Position numbers and translations under genes: made by a program
The notes under the pieces: generated by a model
What the model was told of the DNA's origin: nothing
The model's database searches: none
Seen by the model: the letters and a program-made list of their open reading frames with translations, nothing else
IMG/VR virus record: IMGVR_UViG_3300027752_001458
Location: 32,001-96,000 of that record
DNA from: a virus
DNA length: 64,000 nt
Direction: 5' to 3' (one strand)
Part shown: piece after piece, positions 16,992 through 58,439 of the stretch
How positions within the stretch are numbered: position 1 is the stretch's first letter
How the letters are laid out: each line of letters starts with the position of its first letter

Positions 16992-18759
16992 AATTAAAAA
17001 TGTAACAGCCAAGAACTTTATGAGTGTAGGTAACAACTTGCAAGCCGTAACGTTCGATACTGATTCATTGACATTAGTGTTAGGTCATAACTTAGACCTA
17101 GGTGGCGATGGTAGTAGGAACGGTACAGGTAAGACTACTATTATTAACGCACTCAGCTATGCACTTTACGGCGAGGCACTGACTAACATCAGAAAAGATA
17201 ATCTTATTAATAAGACAAATGGTAAAGGAATGATTACCACTGTTGACTTTGAGATTAAAGGAACTGAGTATAGAATTGAACGTGGTCGAAGACCTAACGT
17301 GTTAAAGTTCTATATCGATGGTAACGAATCGGCTGACAACGAACAGCAAGGTGATATGCGTGAAACTCAAAAAGACATCGAGCGTGTCATTGGGTTCCCA
17401 CATAATATGTTTAAGCATTTAATTGCATTAAACACATACACTGAACCGTTCCTCAGTATGAAAACAAATGACCAACGAGACATGATTGAACAGTTGTTGG
17501 GCATTACTGAAATTAGTTCTAAGGCAGAAGTGCTAAAGGAATTACTCAAGTCTACTAAAGACAGTATTAAAGACGAAGAGTCTAGGATACATGCAGTACA
17601 GAATGCTAACAAACGTATCGAGTCCAGTATTAAAGACATCGAAAGTCGGAGTAAGGCTTGGGGCAGACTCAAAGGAGATAAAGTTCATGGATTGCAAACT
17701 AGTTTAGATACATTAGAACACACTGACATTAAAGCAGAGCTAGACTGTCACAGAAAGATTGTGGATATTAATGAAAAACAAGCAAAGCTAACGGCACTTA
17801 AAACAGACTTGACCACAAGAACAACGTCAATGAATCGAAGTGACAATAAACTTACTACCTTAGAAGCTAACTTAACAAAAGCACTCGAAGGTGTATGTCC
17901 TACATGCGAGCAAGGTACTGCACATTTAAGCACACATGAAAAGTATACTGATGATTTGAGTGAAGAGATTAAAGAAGAGCAACGGTACAATGTTGAGCTA
18001 GTTGATAAAATTAGAGAGATTACTTCTACTATTAAAACACTTGGCAATATTCCTGAGACGCCTATTACGTTTTATAACAAAATGGAAGATGCGTTACAGC
18101 ACAAACATAATGTTGAAACGTTACAGGCACAAATTGAAGAAAAGATTAAAGAAGAAAATCCGTATGTCGAGCAAGTAGATCAACTTAGAACATCGGGTAT
18201 CGAAGAAGTAAGTTATGAATCAATAAACGATTTCACTAGTTTAAAAGAACACCAAGAGTTCTTGCATAAACTATTAACCAGTAAAGACAGTTTTATTCGT
18301 AAAAAGATTATTGACCAAAACTTACAATACTTAAACTACCGACTGAACTACTATTTAGAAAAGTTGGGCTTACCACACGATGTTAAATTTAACAGTGACT
18401 TAACTGTTGATATTACAGAGTACGGTAGAGACTTAGACTTTGATAATTTAAGTAGGGGCGAACGTAACAGACTTATACTAGGTATGAGTTGGGCGTTTAG
18501 AGACATTTACGAAAGTCTTAACCAGCCTATGAACTTGATGTGTATCGACGAACTAGTAGATAGTGGCATGGACACAACAGGTGTCGAGAATGCACTAGCA
18601 GTTCTTAAGAAGATGGGCCGAGAGTCAAACAAGAATGTATTCCTTATTTCGCACAAAGAAGAATTACAAGGGCGTGTTAACAATGTCTTGTATGTTGTTA
18701 AAGAAGGAGGATTCACTAGTTACAGTAATGACATAGAAATCCTTGATGAGAATACGTGA
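16984..18759 (+). CDS. gp46: Recombination ATPase subunit (Rad50/SbcC-like)
   Basis: Walker A NGTGKTT, zinc hook CPTC, signature LSRGE, Walker B CIDE and ISH; probable TTG start at 16984 (MLKIKNV). Confidence 0.93.
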   Translation: MLKIKNVTAKNFMSVGNNLQAVTFDTDSLTLVLGHNLDLGGDGSRNGTGKTTIINALSYALYGEALTNIRKDNLINKTNGKGMITTVDFEIKGTEYRIERGRRPNVLKFYIDGNESADNEQQGDMRETQKDIERVIGFPHNMFKHLIALNTYTEPFLSMKTNDQRDMIEQLLGITEISSKAEVLKELLKSTKDSIKDEESRIHAVQNANKRIESSIKDIESRSKAWGRLKGDKVHGLQTSLDTLEHTDIKAELDCHRKIVDINEKQAKLTALKTDLTTRTTSMNRSDNKLTTLEANLTKALEGVCPTCEQGTAHLSTHEKYTDDLSEEIKEEQRYNVELVDKIREITSTIKTLGNIPETPITFYNKMEDALQHKHNVETLQAQIEEKIKEENPYVEQVDQLRTSGIEEVSYESINDFTSLKEHQEFLHKLLTSKDSFIRKKIIDQNLQYLNYRLNYYLEKLGLPHDVKFNSDLTVDITEYGRDLDFDNLSRGERNRLILGMSWAFRDIYESLNQPMNLMCIDELVDSGMDTTGVENALAVLKKMGRESNKNVFLISHKEELQGRVNNVLYVVKEGGFTSYSNDIEILDENT

Positions 18760-19181
18760 GCCAGTGGACATATAAAGGTAAACAAGTAGACGAGCTACCG
18801 ACAGACTGCGAAGCATTTGTTTACCTAATCACAAACTTAACTAGCGATAAGAAGTACGTTGGTAAAAAGTTAGCAAAGTTCAAAACAACCAAGCCTCCCT
18901 TAAAGGGAAAGAAGAATAAACGCCGTGGCACTAAAGAAAGTGACTGGCGTACATATTGGGGCAGTTCGGATCACTTAAATGCTGATGTGTTAGAGCTAGG
19001 CGAAGATAAGTTTACAAGAGAAATATTGCATTATTGCCCAACTAGAGGCATAGCAAGTTACATCGAAGCAGAAGAACAATTTAATCGAAATGTTCTCTTG
19101 ACAGATGAGTATTATAATGGTATAATAAACGTCAGAGTAGGCGGTTCAAAAATACTAAAGGAACATTTTGGAAAGACATAA
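18756..19181 (+). CDS. Minimal GIY-YIG-like nuclease
   Basis: FVYLITN...KKYVGKK (GIY/YIG), conserved Glu (YIEAEEQ) and Asn (YYNG); no obvious C-terminal DNA-binding domain. Confidence 0.7.
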   Translation: MSQWTYKGKQVDELPTDCEAFVYLITNLTSDKKYVGKKLAKFKTTKPPLKGKKNKRRGTKESDWRTYWGSSDHLNADVLELGEDKFTREILHYCPTRGIASYIEAEEQFNRNVLLTDEYYNGIINVRVGGSKILKEHFGKT

Positions 19182-19269
19182 CTATATATTGAACATGGCA
19201 CACACCGACACCCAGTCTCGCTAATAAAAACGATCCCAGACACAAAGTCAAACTAATAAAGTACAACAC

Positions 19270-19704
19270 ATAGGACTATGCACCAGCCCCAACCGAGGCC
19301 AATATCGGACTCTTCGACAAACCTGAACAAGGTGCGAGAATTAGAGATGCATAGCGGTAAAGATACGACACATACGAAAAACTGTATTAGAAGGATGTAG
19401 GCACTGAGAAAAAGCAACCTACAAGTTTGTATAACTAAACTCTACAAGGTTATACAAATTTCCGTGAGATGAGACGGTAGTGTATGGGGACAGAAAGCTC
19501 ACTGGTTCCTTTAAGCACCCGAGTTAGAGATGATGATGGCTCATATGATGACAATATGACCGAACAGCTTCTCCTTGCAATAGGAGAAGTATGACTCCAA
19601 CTATATGATAACTTTAAATTACTTCTTTAATTTAAAAAAGTTACTTCAAGAACTGAAATGAATGAAATGATTGAAGTTAGTAGAAGTAAAGATACGAAGT
19701 ATCT
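19270..19704 (+). ncRNA. Putative large structured non-coding element
   Basis: About 520 nt with no ORF and at least nine inverted-repeat stems, several using G-U pairs (listed in findings). Strand is assumed from the upstream operon. Confidence 0.5.
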
Positions 19705-20221
19705 ATAAAGTATTAAACAATTCAACAGTATCTCTGTAAGACAAACGTAAATTAACTGTATACAAATAAAAGTCTTTGTTTAATGAATGTAATGAAGCTC
19801 CATGGAATTTAGTTACGTCTAGTATACACACTTCACCTGGATGTAACATTTTATTGTGTTCTGAGTCTTTATGTATTATTTCAATTGGAACATCTTCTAA
19901 GTTAAACATTATATTAGTTTTTCTTGTTAGAGGGTTCTTCCATCCCATTAACCAATCCTGATGTAGTTTCACCATTGTACCTTGCTTAACAGTTTCTATT
20001 GCTACACTATGCTCCGCAATGTCTAACGGCAACGGAGTAGCGTCTATTATTTGTTGTTGTAGGCTTTGAGGCATGTCGCGGAGTAAAAAAATGTGCTGAT
20101 CCATTTCAGCACGGTCTTCTACTAAATGAAACTCACTAGCCTCTTTGAACTGCGTTATAGGTTCAACAAGTTGTCGCATTGCGTCAACATCATAGTCCCA
20201 CTTTAAAATTGTGCTATACAT
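19703..20221 (-). CDS. Cupin / 2OG-Fe(II) oxygenase-like protein
   Basis: HQD...LDVTKFHG, an HxD...H facial triad. Confidence 0.6.
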   Translation of the reverse strand: MYSTILKWDYDVDAMRQLVEPITQFKEASEFHLVEDRAEMDQHIFLLRDMPQSLQQQIIDATPLPLDIAEHSVAIETVKQGTMVKLHQDWLMGWKNPLTRKTNIMFNLEDVPIEIIHKDSEHNKMLHPGEVCILDVTKFHGASLHSLNKDFYLYTVNLRLSYRDTVELFNTL

Positions 20222-20652
20222 TCGCTGTAGAACATCCTATTATTGACTGTTACAAACTCAGCTTTGAAGGGATTTTCGCGGTTATCACACCCATGTTCTT
20301 TAGTAGTATCTATTATAAAGAACTCGCCTACTTGTATAGTGTGGTCTTCTATTACACCATTATTAGTGTGCTGTACTGTAGCAGGCCCCTCTCCCACGTT
20401 AATCAGTATATTACTGTTTCTCCCACCGATATCTATGTGCAAGTGCAGTTGATCATGTTCCATAATATACTCTAATCCCACGTGGTGTAACGGCTCAATA
20501 TGGTACTTTTCGATGAAGTCAGCAGGCATCCTGCTCCATAACTGCTGGGCAGAATACAGCTTTTGGCGAATCTTCCTAAGCTGTACTACGCTACTCAGCA
20601 TCTTGTCTGTACGCAAAAACTCGAGGAATTGCTTAAATTCTATACTTTCCAT
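20203..20652 (-). CDS. Cupin / 2OG-Fe(II) oxygenase-like protein (paralogue of the neighbour)
   Basis: HID...IDTTKEHG triad; late promoter GGTAAATA at 20658-20665 lies immediately upstream. Confidence 0.6.
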   Translation of the reverse strand: MESIEFKQFLEFLRTDKMLSSVVQLRKIRQKLYSAQQLWSRMPADFIEKYHIEPLHHVGLEYIMEHDQLHLHIDIGGRNSNILINVGEGPATVQHTNNGVIEDHTIQVGEFFIIDTTKEHGCDNRENPFKAEFVTVNNRMFYSECIAQF

Positions 20653-21457: not shown

Positions 21458-21764
21458 TATATTACAAGAAGTAACAGACTGGGGCAAGTACTCAGTTAAC
21501 AACGGCATTTATCATGTGAACGGTGCAGGACAGTTAGTTGCATATAAGCCATCAGATGATGCTGAACTTAAAACGTTTATTAACCCATTAAAGCAGTTTA
21601 GCAAAAGTAGACGTAAGTTTGTTAAGCTCGGGCAAGTAGAAGAGCAGTTAGCAGATGACGTTATTGTTGTACAAGGCAGTAACGGAAAAACTTACACAAT
21701 CCAAGATGGCAAATGTAGTTGCCCTGGTTACACTTACAGAGGAGATTGTAAACATGTTAAATAA
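21450..21764 (+). CDS. SWIM zinc-finger protein
   Basis: C-terminal CSCPGYTYRGDCKH (CxC-xn-CxH). Confidence 0.75.
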   Translation: MIDILQEVTDWGKYSVNNGIYHVNGAGQLVAYKPSDDAELKTFINPLKQFSKSRRKFVKLGQVEEQLADDVIVVQGSNGKTYTIQDGKCSCPGYTYRGDCKHVK

Positions 21765-24105
21765 AATTATTAGTGTATCAGCAGTATTATTGTTAGGAGC
21801 ATGTGCAAGCGGCGGTGGGTCATCCCCTGCTCCAGTGACACCTGTAGTATCTACTTCACAAGCAACTACTACACCCACAGACCAACGGCATGCGTTTGAC
21901 ACATGGTCTAAAGTGTTCACTACTAATTTGTCAGGCTACAGTGCTAGTGTAACACAAAAGTATGACATGACGGATTATACCACAACAGGTTTGCCTGCTC
22001 CAACTGAAAAATATAAAATAGCAGACTATGGTTTTTTCCGTTCTACTATTACAGGCAGTCATCCTGGGTTTGACTACGAAGACACAACACCTATTTTAAG
22101 TTTCATGCAACATGGTCAGATTATCAGAGCTGACTTAAATGGCGATGGATGGCAAGACTTTTACTTGGCGAATTGGGTCGGCAATGACAGGTCTGAATTT
22201 GAACCTGACAGTATGTTGTTTGCATTTTTAAATGATGGTGACGGTAACTTTATATTAAGCAACGATTTGTTTCCAGAAGGCAACCCTTGTTTTAGGGGCT
22301 CCGGTTGTGACAACAATACTGAACACCAAAAAGGTTTAGTGGTTGCAGACTTTAATGGAGACGGCATTGACGACATCTATCAAGGCACTACACTTGTGCT
22401 CAGCGACAACGGAAAGTTATACGATAAAGGCGACACCCATTTGCCTATGGCAGAGTTGTTTGAGAAGTGTATGCCTGGTCAATATAACAGTATGTGTTTC
22501 CAGCACGATGCTGATGTAGGCGATGCAGACGGTGACGGTGACATAGACATTTTTATTCCTATCTCGTCAGCACATGTTGATAACTATCCTATGCCTTGGG
22601 CAATGTTAATAAATGACGGCACTGGTAAGTTTACTGCTAATCAAAACTTCCCAACACAGGCGGCAAATGTGTTTGCTACAGCGGCTACTATAGGCGACTT
22701 CGATGGTGACGGACACGGTGATGTTGCTGTTGGGTGGTTTATGACAGCCGAAGCAAAAGCAAATGGCTTTAGCGAAAACTATGACAATAGTGCAGGCACG
22801 GTATTTTGGAATGATGGAAATAATGATTGGAGAAACAGAGCATGGACAGAGCTTCCTGACAACTACTACGGTGCAAACGGAAATGCAAACGACATAAAAG
22901 CATTTGATTTTAACGGAGACGGCTTACTTGATATTATACTTGCGTCTACTAAGCACGAACCATATTACGATGGCAGGGTTGTACAGTTTTTCTTAAACAA
23001 CGGTGATGAGACATTTAGTGATGTTACAAGCACAGTTAATCCAGACACAAAATATGTTAACGGTTTGTGCCCAGACTCAACTGGTCCTTGCTATTGGAAC
23101 GGAGACGGCAACTTAGAAATATTAGACTTTGATGCAGACGGTGATTTAGATATCGTCGACACAGTGTTTGGTACTTATGCGTTAATAAACGAAGACGGCA
23201 CGTTTACAATATACGATGACTTTCCTACTTTTGACGACAGCACATCTTACTACCCAGTAGAAATAGACAACAAGTATTTCTATGACTTTATTGCTTCAAC
23301 TACGGAATACAGCGACACAGAAAGTATCCAAACATTTTATCAAGTGTTAGATCCGCCTTTTGTAAAAATGATGGAAGAGATTACTAACAAGCCTAAAGCA
23401 TACGTTGAAGGTATATTTGAAAGTAAGATGTTGTTTAGCGACTTACGACAGAACCAACGCTCAACCTCATTGTTTGCTACTGATATGGAAACATACGGTA
23501 TGGCAGGAGTGACACACAGAACAGACACGTTCGGATTTAATGCAGGTAAACTTACTGGTGATAACAATGGTAGTTTTGTTGGACTTGACTATGTAAGCAA
23601 TAACATACACGTTGGCATTAACTATGTTAACAACACTATGTCAATGTATAATCCTACAGAATATTACGGCACAGGTTCAGCTGATGTTGACTACGACACT
23701 GTTAGTGTGTTTGCAGAACAAGTGACTTATTTGACAGACACATGGTATACATCATACGGTGTTGAACTTTACCACACTGAAGTAGATAGCTTTACTGAAC
23801 AGAACAGTACACACAATGTTACAGTGGATGCATTTAATATGTCTGACGCAAAACTGTTTGCTGATATTACAGGCAAGTTTAATTCTAAATTAGGCTCAAC
23901 GTTTGTAAGTTTAGGGTATGAAGTTTATCGTGGACTAGGTAGCAGTACTGTTAACTTTGCTGATGTACTAGAGTATGATTCATCGCGTGAACTGGACTTA
24001 GGTAAGATTTCGGTATTACACATGTATAACTCTTTTTATGCAAGAGCTTCTATGAATACAGAAGAGTATAACACTTTTGAAGTTGGTTTTTTAATTAACT
24101 GGTAG
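21754..24105 (+). CDS. Lipoprotein with FG-GAP/VCBS repeats and putative C-terminal autotransporter-like beta-barrel
   Basis: AGGAG RBS then ATG at 21754; lipobox LLGA-C and an S/T/P linker; repeated DxNGDGxxD motifs; alternating aromatic strands ending in FEVGFLINW. Confidence 0.75.
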   Translation: MLNKIISVSAVLLLGACASGGGSSPAPVTPVVSTSQATTTPTDQRHAFDTWSKVFTTNLSGYSASVTQKYDMTDYTTTGLPAPTEKYKIADYGFFRSTITGSHPGFDYEDTTPILSFMQHGQIIRADLNGDGWQDFYLANWVGNDRSEFEPDSMLFAFLNDGDGNFILSNDLFPEGNPCFRGSGCDNNTEHQKGLVVADFNGDGIDDIYQGTTLVLSDNGKLYDKGDTHLPMAELFEKCMPGQYNSMCFQHDADVGDADGDGDIDIFIPISSAHVDNYPMPWAMLINDGTGKFTANQNFPTQAANVFATAATIGDFDGDGHGDVAVGWFMTAEAKANGFSENYDNSAGTVFWNDGNNDWRNRAWTELPDNYYGANGNANDIKAFDFNGDGLLDIILASTKHEPYYDGRVVQFFLNNGDETFSDVTSTVNPDTKYVNGLCPDSTGPCYWNGDGNLEILDFDADGDLDIVDTVFGTYALINEDGTFTIYDDFPTFDDSTSYYPVEIDNKYFYDFIASTTEYSDTESIQTFYQVLDPPFVKMMEEITNKPKAYVEGIFESKMLFSDLRQNQRSTSLFATDMETYGMAGVTHRTDTFGFNAGKLTGDNNGSFVGLDYVSNNIHVGINYVNNTMSMYNPTEYYGTGSADVDYDTVSVFAEQVTYLTDTWYTSYGVELYHTEVDSFTEQNSTHNVTVDAFNMSDAKLFADITGKFNSKLGSTFVSLGYEVYRGLGSSTVNFADVLEYDSSRELDLGKISVLHMYNSFYARASMNTEEYNTFEVGFLINW

Positions 24106-57846: not shown

Positions 57847-57936
57847 GGAGAGTTGGCTGAGTGGTCGAAAGTACCTCCCTGCTAAGGAGGCGTCTGGGTA
57901 ACTGGACCGAGGGTTCGAATCCCTCACTCTCCGCCA
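57847..57936 (+). tRNA. tRNA-Ser(GCT)
   Basis: GGAGAG/CTCTCC acceptor, CCTCC-CTGCTAA-GGAGG anticodon arm, long variable arm, GGTTCGAATCC, encoded CCA. Confidence 0.95.
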
Positions 57937-57981
57937 CTATTTTAGAGCATTGGCAATGCTGGTGGTAAATATACGCAGTAA

Positions 57982-58056
57982 GCGAGTATAGTATAACGGT
58001 TATTACAAGACGTTGCCAACGTTTGGATATCGGTTCGATTCCGATTACCCGCTCCA
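57982..58056 (+). tRNA. tRNA-Gly(GCC)
   Basis: AGACG-TTGCCAA-CGTTT anticodon arm, GGTTCGATTCC, TCCA end; one A-C mismatch in the acceptor stem. Confidence 0.9.
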
Positions 58057-58106
58057 ACTACGAATAGTTCGTAGGCATTGTTACAAGTGTAACAGGAAGG
58101 TATAAC

Positions 58107-58349
58107 ATGGTTAATGCAATAACAACCAAAAAAGTAAGTAAGGCAACAACACCAGCAGTGTTAAAAAGAAAAGAAATCGTAGATATTGATTTTGACTTTT
58201 CTAAGATTGGTGAGAATGTCCAGAAGAACGCAGAACAGATTAGCAAGAACCTTATGAGGAATGCTGAAATGATCGGTGAAAATGTTAAAAGAAACTCAGC
58301 GAGAGTTGGCGATAACATGAAGAAATACTTAAATAGAAATATTAAGTAA
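58107..58349 (+). CDS. Small basic protein with 11-residue amphipathic repeats
   Basis: AGGAAGG RBS; FSKIGENVQKN / AEQISKNLMRN / AEMIGENVKRN / SARVGDNMKKY. Confidence 0.7.
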   Translation: MVNAITTKKVSKATTPAVLKRKEIVDIDFDFSKIGENVQKNAEQISKNLMRNAEMIGENVKRNSARVGDNMKKYLNRNIK

Positions 58350-58363
58350 GCAAGAAAATATCT

Positions 58364-58439
58364 GGGGCTGTAGCTCAGTTGGGAGAGCGGTTCCCTTGCA
58401 CGGAACAGGTCGTAGGTTCGATCCCTATCAGCTCCACCA
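58364..58439 (+). tRNA. tRNA-Ala(TGC)
   Basis: 76 nt, GGGGCTG...CAGCTCCACCA with G3:U70, GTTCC-CTTGCAC-GGAAC anticodon arm. Confidence 0.95.

What the first reader, a model, noticed from the sequence alone, without database searches (positions are those of the whole stretch)
18756..19610. Minimal GIY-YIG nuclease followed by a long, densely structured non-coding element
Seen: about 520 nt without an ORF in an otherwise tightly packed genome. Stems include CTATGCA 19276 / TGCATAG 19348; CATAC 19371 / GTATG 19482, which encloses TGTAGG 19396 / CCTACA 19418 and TTTGTATAAC 19426 / GTTATACAAA 19449; GGGGACAG/CTGGTTCCT near 19486-19510; GAGTTA/TGGCTC 19521-19542; TCATAT/ATATGA 19541-19559; and CTTCTCCT 19568 / AGGAGAAG 19582. 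GGTGC 19331 can pair with either GCACC 19280 or GCACC 19515, suggesting a switch or long-range pair. Several G-U pairs favour an RNA-level fold on the plus strand. The upstream nuclease appears to be a catalytic domain with a basic insert and no DNA-binding tail. Inference: a nuclease-associated ncRNA (ribonucleoprotein) or an origin-associated RNA at the end of the gp55-gp47-gp46 operon. I do not recognise it as tmRNA, RNase P or an intron.
Basis: partly seen in the sequence, partly recalled or inferred. Interest (0 to 1): 0.75.

Follow-up and report, generated by a model that had tools for sequence, protein, structure and literature searches.

The report
New twin-box knotted phage RNA
The gene-free stretch behind a small nuclease gene of this uncultured marine giant phage encodes a real, roughly 0.4-0.5 kb, doubly knotted RNA of an uncatalogued family. 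It carries two short boxes that always mutate together, and its job is still unknown.

Summary
19182-19702 has no ORF, not even with one stop codon recoded, and shows no codon periodicity. It is conserved at 70-88% nucleotide identity behind the same 141-aa GIY-YIG gene in many IMG/VR contigs.

It folds as an RNA on the + strand. In my model, 46 of 67 pairs show compensatory changes and 95% of cells are paired (0/500 shuffles reach this). Both pseudoknots are supported, and several G-U pairs never vary.

No Rfam 15 family matches. A perfect sigma-70 promoter lies inside the end of the nuclease ORF. Contigs from four marine metatranscriptome studies cover the RNA.

The strangest feature is two direct 10-nt boxes (19543-19552 and 19603-19612). 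They are identical at 9 positions in 56-57 of 57 sequences while varying between lineages. The tenth position is always G in the first box and A in the second.

The nuclease link is strong but not obligatory. All 51 RNA copies found by an RNA-only pattern have the GIY gene upstream. Yet other copies sit behind a PDDEXK nuclease or no nuclease, and close GIY orthologues lack the RNA.

I read it as an autonomous RNA gene, not the nuclease's guide; its function is unknown. Earlier reports of this scan found the same family on other DNA.

The parts
18756..19181 (+). 141-aa stand-alone GIY-YIG nuclease (I-TevI/SegE-type catalytic domain with a basic beta-hairpin insert and no DNA-binding tail). Its GTG start overlaps the gp46 stop.
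   Evidence: Pfam PF19835 at E 1.2e-33; PHROG 447; AF2 pLDDT 92.7; Foldseek best match I-TevI catalytic domain; catalytic Y/Y/R/E/N columns invariant in 25 homologues.
19098..19126 (+). Perfect sigma-70 promoter (TTGACA, 17 nt, TATAAT, with TG) inside the 3' end of the nuclease ORF. The predicted start of the RNA is near 19133.
   Evidence: 12/12 match. The same 12/12 promoter sits at the same codon positions in 13 non-redundant RNA-bearing relatives despite synonymous changes in the spacer, and is absent in other clades. Metatranscriptome contigs begin at 19112 and 19140.
19133..19275 (+). Weakly conserved 5' leader with GGCACA-type short repeats and a small AGAC...GUC hairpin.
   Evidence: Alignment A1 columns 1-115. 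An unrelated-core RNA in L105 has the same leader.
19276..19354 (+). 5' domain: P1 (19276-19282/19348-19354) enclosing hairpins P2 (19293-19296/19305-19308) and P3 (19321-19324/19330-19333).
   Evidence: 4 of 7 P1 pairs, 4 of 4 P2 pairs and 4 of 4 P3 pairs have compensatory changes. Coordinates.
19362..19423 (+). P4 (19362-19366/19384-19388) and P5 (19396-19401/19418-19423). The P5 loop carries the family's invariant UGAGAAAAAGCAAC (19405-19418).
   Evidence: The loop is invariant in 45 and in 47 sequences. P5 has 4 of 6 compensatory pairs.
19426..19529 (+). Knotted core. P6 is 19426-19435/19449-19458. Pseudoknot A joins the P6 loop 19440-19444 to 19525-19529. Pseudoknot B joins 19464-19468 to 19498-19502, which lies in the loop of hairpin Pb (19486-19491/19505-19510). 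Stem Pa is 19475-19483/19515-19521.
   Evidence: P6 has 10/10, PK-A 5/5 and PK-B 4/5 pairs with changes on both sides. PK-B also covaries in distant clades (GUUGA/UCAAC, GCGUA/UACGC).
19536..19552 (+). Twin unit 1: AUGGC followed by box R1 (19543-19552, ATATGATGAC).
   Evidence: Identity covariation with unit 2.
19568..19589 (+). Inter-box hairpin. Its 3' arm is purine-rich and Shine-Dalgarno-like (AGGAG here; GGUGA or GGGCGA elsewhere).
   Evidence: Compensatory arm changes (CUCCUUG/AAGGAG, CACCCGG/CGGGUG, CUCACCU/AGGUGAG).
19591..19612 (+). Twin unit 2: AUGAC followed by box R2 (19603-19612, ATATGATAAC). It reads as a 5-codon mini-ORF ending in UGA UAA.
   Evidence: The mini-ORF is not conserved everywhere: it has 2 codons in L030, a CUG start in L092, and is absent in PA5oct.
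19619..19704 (+). AT-rich 3' tail: a long hairpin whose loop carries UGAAAUGA-type repeats, then a small C-GAA-G hairpin (19690-19704). On the minus strand that small hairpin, followed by a U-rich run, looks like the terminator of the convergent gene. Whether the tail belongs to the RNA is open.
   Evidence: Both hairpins are conserved with visible compensatory changes across clades in the alignment; this was not formally counted. The same two parts follow the PA5oct copies. No RNA contig goes beyond 19641.

Best explanation
Shown: 19133-19641 (approximate ends) is a gene for a large, doubly pseudoknotted non-coding RNA of a family absent from Rfam. Host-type RNA polymerase can transcribe it from a consensus promoter buried in the last codons of the upstream GIY-YIG gene, and it is present in marine metatranscriptomes. 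Inferred: it is a gene in its own right. The nuclease gene is linked to it because promoter and ORF overlap, and by operon, synteny or homing logic, not because the RNA guides the enzyme. Inferred mechanism, about 30% likely: the conserved knotted core is a scaffold that binds a protein or ligand, or multimerises. The two co-varying 10-nt boxes at the 3' end are the working part. Both engage the same lineage-specific partner, most simply a nucleic acid bound by base pairing. The reason is that the two boxes differ from each other only by transitions (G in R1, A in R2; C/U swaps in the flanks), and one partner strand could accept those through G-U wobble. The hairpin between the boxes holds them apart. 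What the pairing achieves (sponging, targeting, priming or processing) is unknown.
For: Conservation: 70-88% nucleotide identity directly behind the GIY gene in all gp46 relatives that have room. Structure: 95.1% of cells paired, 46/67 compensatory pairs, covariation score 0.336 against 0.143 shuffled (0/500) and 0.04-0.08 for slid controls. Non-coding. No Rfam family at gathering score or at E<=10; no tRNA or tmRNA. Promoter. Transcripts: contigs from 4 metatranscriptome studies cover 19112-19641. Three of the runs cover the RNA but not the GIY ORF. In X15, contig word depth is 116-325 on the RNA against about 30 and about 20 on the flanking genes. Twin boxes: the top mutual-information pairs are identities (323/376: A-A 33, G-G 13, T-T 11). 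Nine of ten box positions are identical in 56-57 of 57 sequences and the tenth is always G versus A. At seven variable column pairs, 386/413 cells are identical against 233 +/- 10 when shuffled (0/2000). Distant clades carry quite different box sequences, again twinned. Autonomy: copies recognised by the covariance model sit behind a PDDEXK_15 nuclease (L211) or no nuclease (L233, L274), with the same CAUGAUGA/CAUGAUAA boxes in L233 and L274. Probable homologues in cultured phage PA5oct have no GIY beside them. Melnitz (GIY 79% identical) and S-SRM01 have no such RNA.
Against: No partner for the boxes was found. No column of the RNA covaries with them in Watson-Crick fashion. No conserved complementary site lies within -800/+450 nt. 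The 110-kb contig has no excess of complementary sites (15 observed, 6-15 in shuffles). All 51 unbiased RNA copies do have a GIY gene upstream on the same strand, and the pair stays together through inversions and at least 12 different upstream neighbours. That is stronger linkage than simple synteny predicts. The expression evidence is from assembled contigs only: no ends, no strand, no true levels. The transition-only difference was partly selected for by my box-finding score; the unbiased count covers the main clade only.
Confidence: 0.45

Rival explanations
1. Ribonucleoprotein: the RNA is the cofactor (guide, activator or inhibitor) of the adjacent minimal GIY-YIG nuclease, which lacks a DNA-binding domain of its own. 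The twin boxes specify or mimic its target.
For: 51/51 pattern-found RNA copies have the GIY gene upstream on the same strand, 49 of them directly upstream. The pair is inverted and relocated as a unit. The RNA promoter overlaps the nuclease's 3' end, as in omega-RNA genes. The nuclease is a bare catalytic domain with a K/R-rich insert.
Against: The RNA exists with an unrelated PDDEXK nuclease or with none, and L233/L274 carry the same box sequences. PA5oct copies have no GIY. GIY orthologues at 48-79% identity in cultured phages have no RNA. No hypervariable guide-like segment lies next to the scaffold. The boxes are only 10 nt and duplicated.
Confidence: 0.12
2. The nuclease is a free-standing homing-type endonuclease that sits beside, and perhaps cuts in, a conserved RNA gene, as SegB does in the T4 tRNA cluster. 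The RNA is only its landing place or hitch-hiker, and its function has nothing to do with the nuclease.
For: Two unrelated nuclease folds (GIY-YIG; PDDEXK_15) occupy the same slot between gp46 and the RNA in related phages. The Pfam and fold matches are to Seg/I-TevI homing enzymes. The module has many different neighbours.
Against: The GIY gene is not sporadic: 51/51. It has constant length and 52-88% identity with all catalytic residues kept, and no decayed copies were seen. It lacks the DNA-binding domain that Seg enzymes use. It is also a conserved gene in phages without the RNA.
Confidence: 0.18
3. Cis-acting replication element: a strongly transcribed, folded primer RNA that forms an R-loop in the AT-rich, repeat-bearing tail next to the recombination genes gp47/gp46, in the way of T4 oriF/oriG or ColE1 RNA II.
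For: A consensus early-type promoter. GC falls to 23.5% at 19600-19799. The tail has short direct repeats and stable small hairpins conserved across clades and in PA5oct. The position next to gp46/47 is shared with PA5oct.
Against: An R-loop primer does not need two conserved pseudoknots or an invariant 14-nt loop. The GC skew shows no switch here. The module is found in many other contexts. RNA contigs stop before the tail.
Confidence: 0.07
4. Decoy or antitoxin-like RNA: the repeated boxes are recognition or cleavage sites for a sequence-specific host or phage ribonuclease or defence protein. Phage pseudo-ToxI repeats that neutralise ToxN would be the precedent.
For: Direct repeats are kept identical within each RNA but differ between lineages. 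The core is swapped for unrelated cores between the same leader and tail (L105 against the window), a pattern seen in arms-race loci. The RNA looks abundant.
Against: Only two short boxes, not tandem whole-unit repeats. No toxin gene in the type III order. PADLOC was not searched. The transition-only differences fit pairing better than protein recognition.
Confidence: 0.1
5. Translated element: the two AUG-RC units are tiny ORFs (leader peptides) whose translation is gated by the hairpin that hides a Shine-Dalgarno-like arm.
For: Unit 2 reads start codon, 4-6 codons, then UGA/UAA in most clades. The hairpin's 3' arm keeps AGGAG or GGUGA through compensatory changes.
Against: The mini-ORF has 2 codons in L030/L031, starts with CUG in L092, and is absent in PA5oct. 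Unit 1 is out of frame with its box by +1 and its ORF length is not conserved. The conservation is at nucleotide level, not peptide level. No gene follows on the same strand in most loci.
Confidence: 0.05

Closest known systems
GOLLD (RF01998) and ROOL (RF03087), large ornate RNAs of phages and prophages
   Same: Several hundred nucleotides, many helices and pseudoknots, phage-borne, highly expressed, function unknown.
   Different: No sequence or structure match (cmscan). Not next to tRNA genes here (the tRNAs are 38 kb away). Has twin boxes with identity covariation, which I do not know to be described for those RNAs. Multimerisation was not tested.
SegB / tRNA-cluster arrangement of phage T4 (free-standing GIY-YIG homing endonuclease beside conserved RNA genes; from general knowledge)
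   Same: A Seg/I-TevI-type GIY-YIG gene directly beside a conserved structured-RNA gene. In relatives a nuclease of another fold takes the same slot.
   Different: The nuclease lacks a DNA-binding domain, is near-universal beside this RNA, and is strongly conserved. Cleavage was not tested.
Omega-RNAs of TnpB/IscB (OMEGA systems)
   Same: A structured RNA gene starting inside or at the 3' end of a small nuclease gene and running downstream.
   Different: The nuclease fold is GIY-YIG, not RuvC/HNH. No variable guide was found and no transposon ends were looked at. The RNA also occurs without the nuclease.
ToxI-type RNA antitoxins and phage pseudo-ToxI
   Same: Direct repeats kept identical within one RNA, and pseudoknots.
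   Different: Two 10-nt boxes in a 400-nt unique scaffold rather than tandem 36-nt units. The gene order is reversed and no endoribonuclease toxin is present.
Methylobacterium-1 motif (RF01712), named as closest by an earlier report of this scan
   Same: Nothing that I could show.
   Different: No match at E<=10 anywhere in the 110-kb record or in the region scan.

Membership tests
Any Rfam 15 family (including tmRNA, RNase P, group I/II introns, GOLLD, ROOL, HEARO, OLE) | Covariance-model score at or above the family's gathering score | tested here: not met
   Whole window at gathering score: only 3 tRNAs, far away. Region 19000-19900 at E<=10: only chance-level hits of 23 bits or less, all far below their cut-offs.
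tmRNA / tRNA | tRNA-like domain and tag reading frame recognised by ARAGORN | tested here: not met
   No gene in 18500-20300.
Methylobacterium-1 RNA (RF01712) | Match to the family model | tested here: not met
   0 matches at E<=10 in the window's own record.
GIY-YIG nuclease superfamily (protein 18756-19181) | GIY...YIG motifs plus conserved Arg, Glu and Asn; alpha/beta catalytic fold | tested here: met
   PF19835 at E 1.2e-33. Y23, Y34, R57, E104 and N121 are invariant in 25 homologues. Best fold match is the I-TevI catalytic domain, TM 0.67 on the target.
Seg-type free-standing homing endonucleases | C-terminal DNA-binding domain behind the catalytic domain | tested here: not met
   The protein ends about 17 residues after the Pfam domain. 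All homologues are 133-151 aa.
Seg-type free-standing homing endonucleases | Sporadic presence among otherwise collinear relatives | tested here: not met
   Present in every gp46 relative with room and upstream of 51/51 pattern-found RNA copies. It is replaced by PDDEXK_15 in L211 and in PA5oct.
Seg-type free-standing homing endonucleases | Cleaves the nuclease-less allele near its own insertion site | not testable with these tools
   Needs an enzyme assay or mixed infections.
T4 endonuclease II (DenA) | Detectable similarity to the solved EndoII | tested here: not met
   phmmer against all PDB sequences found no nuclease hit at E<=1. Foldseek ranks I-TevI first and no EndoII entry appears among the 49 listed hits.
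OMEGA-type RNA-guided nucleases | A lineage-variable guide segment adjoining a conserved RNA scaffold, matching a DNA target | tested here: inconclusive
   The only lineage-variable, constrained segments are the twin boxes. No target was found in cis or in the contig. The host genome is unknown.
Type III toxin-antitoxin (ToxIN-like) | Tandem whole-unit RNA repeats upstream of an endoribonuclease gene | tested here: not met
   The RNA lies downstream of the nuclease. Only two partial repeats about 53-60 nt apart were seen, and no tandem array.

The most novel reading that the evidence does not exclude
The twin boxes are a duplicated seed by which this scaffold RNA addresses a nucleic-acid target. 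The neighbouring minimal nuclease (GIY-YIG, or PDDEXK in other lineages), which has no DNA-binding domain, is recruited to that target. This would be an RNA-directed nuclease system built on nuclease folds never seen with guides.
Probability: 0.06. Interest if true: 0.95.

Novelty: categorically new. Interest (0 to 1): 0.72.

Why it matters
Large, intricately folded RNAs are rare, and nearly every class whose function was solved turned out to be a ribozyme, a riboswitch or the core of an RNP. This one is widespread in uncultured marine T4-like and jumbo phages and appears well represented in ocean metatranscriptomes. It shows a constraint I know from no described RNA: two boxes that must stay the same as each other while being free to change. 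That points to a programmable recognition step.

Probable homologues in the cultured Pseudomonas phage PA5oct would make the question testable at the bench. The tight but non-obligatory pairing with small nucleases of two different folds also bears on how mobile nuclease genes and RNA genes travel together.

Tried and rejected
- Protein-coding readings: no ORF, no open frame with one stop recoded, no codon periodicity.
- Decayed C-terminal half of a Seg gene: rejected. All homologues end at 133-151 aa and the downstream DNA is conserved as an RNA fold.
- T4 EndoII (DenA) identity for the nuclease, suggested by its place after nrdAB in Melnitz: no sequence or fold support.
- Group I intron, RNase P and tmRNA likenesses recalled from memory (an ACAGAA...GGCUCAC stretch, tandem stops): the helix order does not fit and no model matches.
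- Cultured-phage DNA search with the element: no match.
- Methylobacterium-1: no match.
- Bacterial genomes: a strict 27-base pattern over 185,579 species found one hit, a 23-kb contig of a marine Legionellales MAG that also carries a GIY-like region and looks like phage DNA.
- A partner strand for the boxes: not found in the RNA, the locus or the contig.
- Helical phasing of the boxes as DNA sites: spacing varies from 36 to 82 nt across the family, mostly 50-58.
- Boxes as stop codons or RF2 sites, or as C/D-type k-turns: they fit some clades but not PA5oct or the L108 type.
- Homology between the window's two convergent downstream genes and PA5oct's PDDEXK gene: none.
- RNA contigs: cover beyond 19641 and over the GIY ORF is missing in three runs. 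Contigs cannot prove absence.
- Paper search: no description found. The 2023 survey of about 10,000 viral RNA candidates does not mention a GIY-linked RNA in its text, and its tables are not held.
Full report
**Where we are.** The window is bases 32001-96000 of a 109,675-nt IMG/VR virus contig that CheckV rates 28% complete. Upstream of the finding lie a late sigma factor (PHROG 12791), a gp47-like phosphoesterase and a gp46-like SMC/Rad50 ATPase. The closest cultured relative by gp46 is the Pseudomonas jumbo phage PA5oct at 53% identity. The GIY-YIG ORF (18756-19181) starts on the stop of gp46. A convergent ORF ends at 19703, which leaves 521 nt without an ORF.

**The nuclease.** It matches Pfam SegE_GIY-YIG over residues 4-124 (E 1.2e-33) and PHROG 447, which is misnamed 'NAD synthetase'.
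- It has hundreds of IMG/VR homologues at 76-88% identity, all 133-151 aa long.
- The catalytic Tyr, Tyr, Arg, Glu and Asn are invariant, and a K/R-rich insert follows the YIG strand.
- The AF2 model is confident (pLDDT 92.7). Its best solved match is the I-TevI catalytic domain, not T4 EndoII.

**The gap is a conserved RNA.**
- blastn and nhmmer find the gap sequence at 70-88% identity directly downstream of the GIY gene, on the same strand, in every gp46 relative with enough DNA. This includes loci where the GIY-plus-gap unit is inverted relative to gp46.
- RNAalifold on 45 sequences below 95% identity gives 30 of 48 pairs with compensatory changes.
- From mutual information on 59 non-redundant sequences I built a model of eleven helices, two of them pseudoknots (coordinates).
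- On alignment A1, 95.1% of cells pair and 46 of 67 pairs show changes on both sides. The covariation score is 0.336 against 0.143 in shuffles (0/500) and 0.04-0.08 when partners are slid by 1-3 columns.
- Pseudoknot A (P6 loop with UAGAG at 19525-19529) has 5/5 compensatory pairs; pseudoknot B has 4/5.
- G-U pairs that never vary put the fold on the + strand.
- The region is not coding. It matches no Rfam family, no tRNA or tmRNA and not RF01712.

**Transcription.**
- A 12/12 sigma-70 promoter with an extended -10 lies at 19098-19126, inside the nuclease's last codons.
- Thirteen non-redundant relatives keep it perfectly at the same place while the spacer varies synonymously. Other clades lack it there, and some GIY loci carry a near-perfect promoter right at the stop codon.
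- Logan contigs of four marine metatranscriptome runs from four studies cover 19112-19641.
- Three of these runs hold the RNA but not the GIY ORF. In the fourth, contig word depth is 116-325 on the RNA against about 30 and about 20 on the neighbours.
- Contigs cannot give ends, strand or true levels, so this is only a hint of an abundant transcript.

**Twin boxes.**
- The strongest mutual-information signals are not base pairs but identities between two direct repeats: unit 1 (AUGGC...box R1) and unit 2 (AUGRC...box R2).
- Over a 10-nt box, nine positions are identical in 56-57 of 57 sequences, although three of them take two or three states. The remaining position is always G in R1 and A in R2.
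- At seven variable column pairs, 386 of 413 cells are identical against 233 +/- 10 after shuffling (0/2000).
- More distant clades have quite different boxes, again twinned: GAAUAAUGC/GAAUAAUAC, AGAUGAUGC/AGAUGAUAC, ACAUGAUGGC/ACAUGAUAGC. Their flanks differ by runs of C/U transitions.
- Between the boxes lies a hairpin with compensatory changes whose 3' arm stays purine-rich.
- Unit 2 often reads as a tiny ORF, but not always. The two units differ in frame by one base, so I do not think translation explains the constraint.
- I found no Watson-Crick partner in the RNA, the locus or the contig.
- Transition-only differences would be tolerated by one common pairing partner through wobble. This is my reason to favour a nucleic-acid partner, but it remains an inference.

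**How tight is the nuclease link?**
- A search with an RNA-only pattern, blind to the protein, gave 51 non-redundant copies with enough upstream DNA. Of these, 49 have the GIY gene directly upstream and two have it 1.1-1.7 kb upstream.
- The pair has at least 12 kinds of upstream and about 20 kinds of downstream neighbour.
- Against an obligatory partnership: a covariance model of the core (R1) finds copies behind a PDDEXK_15 nuclease next to gp46 (L211). It also finds copies behind a small basic ORF near a terminase, with no nuclease at all (L233, L274), carrying the usual boxes.
- Phage Melnitz (GIY 79% identical) has only 150 nt and then ordinary genes behind it, and the cyanophage S-SRM01 has 88 nt. 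The model finds nothing convincing in either genome.

**A wider family.**
- Thirty-five GIY loci that lack this core still have conserved ORF-free stretches behind the gene, with the same 3' plan of twin boxes and a hairpin.
- L105 even shares the window's 5' leader and 3' tail around an unrelated core. L108 shares a 5' domain with another clade but has a different P5 loop.
- PA5oct gives two weak model hits: 22.6 bits in a 911-nt CDS-free gap, and 13 bits about 1.9 kb after gp46.
- Read by eye, the first PA5oct copy shows the same order of parts: consensus promoter, P5-like hairpin with an expanded loop, UUCCG, GAGG/CCUC hairpin, a boxed hairpin, an AT-rich hairpin with a UGAAUAUGAA loop, and a small terminal hairpin. 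The second copy shows the P5-like hairpin, UUCCG and the two tail hairpins.
- Neither PA5oct copy has a GIY gene beside it. A PDDEXK_15 gene lies between gp46 and the second copy.
- The PA5oct paper lists four RNA-seq-defined ncRNAs at other coordinates (PMC7318152). I regard the PA5oct homology as probable, not shown.

**Reading.** This is a real, new RNA family, and I take it to be a gene in its own right. It most likely acts through its twin boxes on a lineage-specific partner. An RNP with the nuclease, a homing arrangement, an origin primer, a decoy and a translated element are kept as rivals with the odds given.

**Earlier work of this scan.** Earlier reports described the same family on other genomes (e1-5335699, e1-5338567, e1-5973060). 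I found the twin boxes before reading them. The lead to look for a promoter came from the title of e1-6047254.

Noticed in passing
L358:1224-2000 (PA5oct MK797984 about 12.8-13.75 kb) and L360:1250-2250 (about 76.1-77.1 kb): The cultured jumbo phage PA5oct seems to carry two distant copies of the whole element in unannotated or mis-annotated gaps. The first copy has promoter, core, boxed hairpin and the two tail hairpins; the second shows the core motifs and tail hairpins. Neither place is among the four ncRNAs reported for this phage.
   Followed up: partly
L105:3852-4500, L092:4417-5050, L108:4411-5000: Other GIY-YIG loci carry different conserved ORF-free elements with the same twin-box 3' plan. 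L105 has the window's leader and tail around an unrelated core, as if cores were exchanged as cassettes.
   Followed up: partly
L211:3298-3867 and L163:6505-7002: A PDDEXK_15 phage endonuclease takes the place of the GIY-YIG gene between gp46 and the RNA in one marine contig, and lies between gp46 and the RNA-like region in PA5oct. So an unrelated nuclease fold is found next to the same RNA.
   Followed up: partly
window 19619-19704: An AT-rich hairpin with UGAAAUGA-type loop repeats and a C-GAA-G mini-hairpin are conserved with compensatory changes across clades. On the minus strand the mini-hairpin followed by a U-rich run looks like the terminator of the convergent gene.
   Followed up: partly
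L276 (PBLX01000043.1, 'Legionellales bacterium' MAG, 23-kb contig): This is the only hit to the RNA pattern among 185,579 species' genomes. The contig looks like phage DNA binned into a MAG.
   Followed up: no
one search hit table; PHROG 447: RefSeq and PHROGs name the orthologues of this GIY-YIG nuclease 'NAD synthetase' in many cyanophage and rhizobiophage records. This looks like a propagated misannotation.
   Followed up: no
window 21655-24105: An 816-aa protein with FG-GAP/FG-GAP_3 repeats (integrin-alpha-like beta-propeller), unusual for a phage.
   Followed up: no
window 57847-58436: Three tRNA genes, 38 kb from the RNA. So this large RNA is not beside the tRNA cluster, unlike many GOLLD/ROOL genes.
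   Followed up: no
L137:1389-2002, L147:4408-5014, L044, L221, L291: In a few contigs 0.6-1.7 kb of extra DNA is inserted between the GIY gene and the RNA.
   Followed up: no
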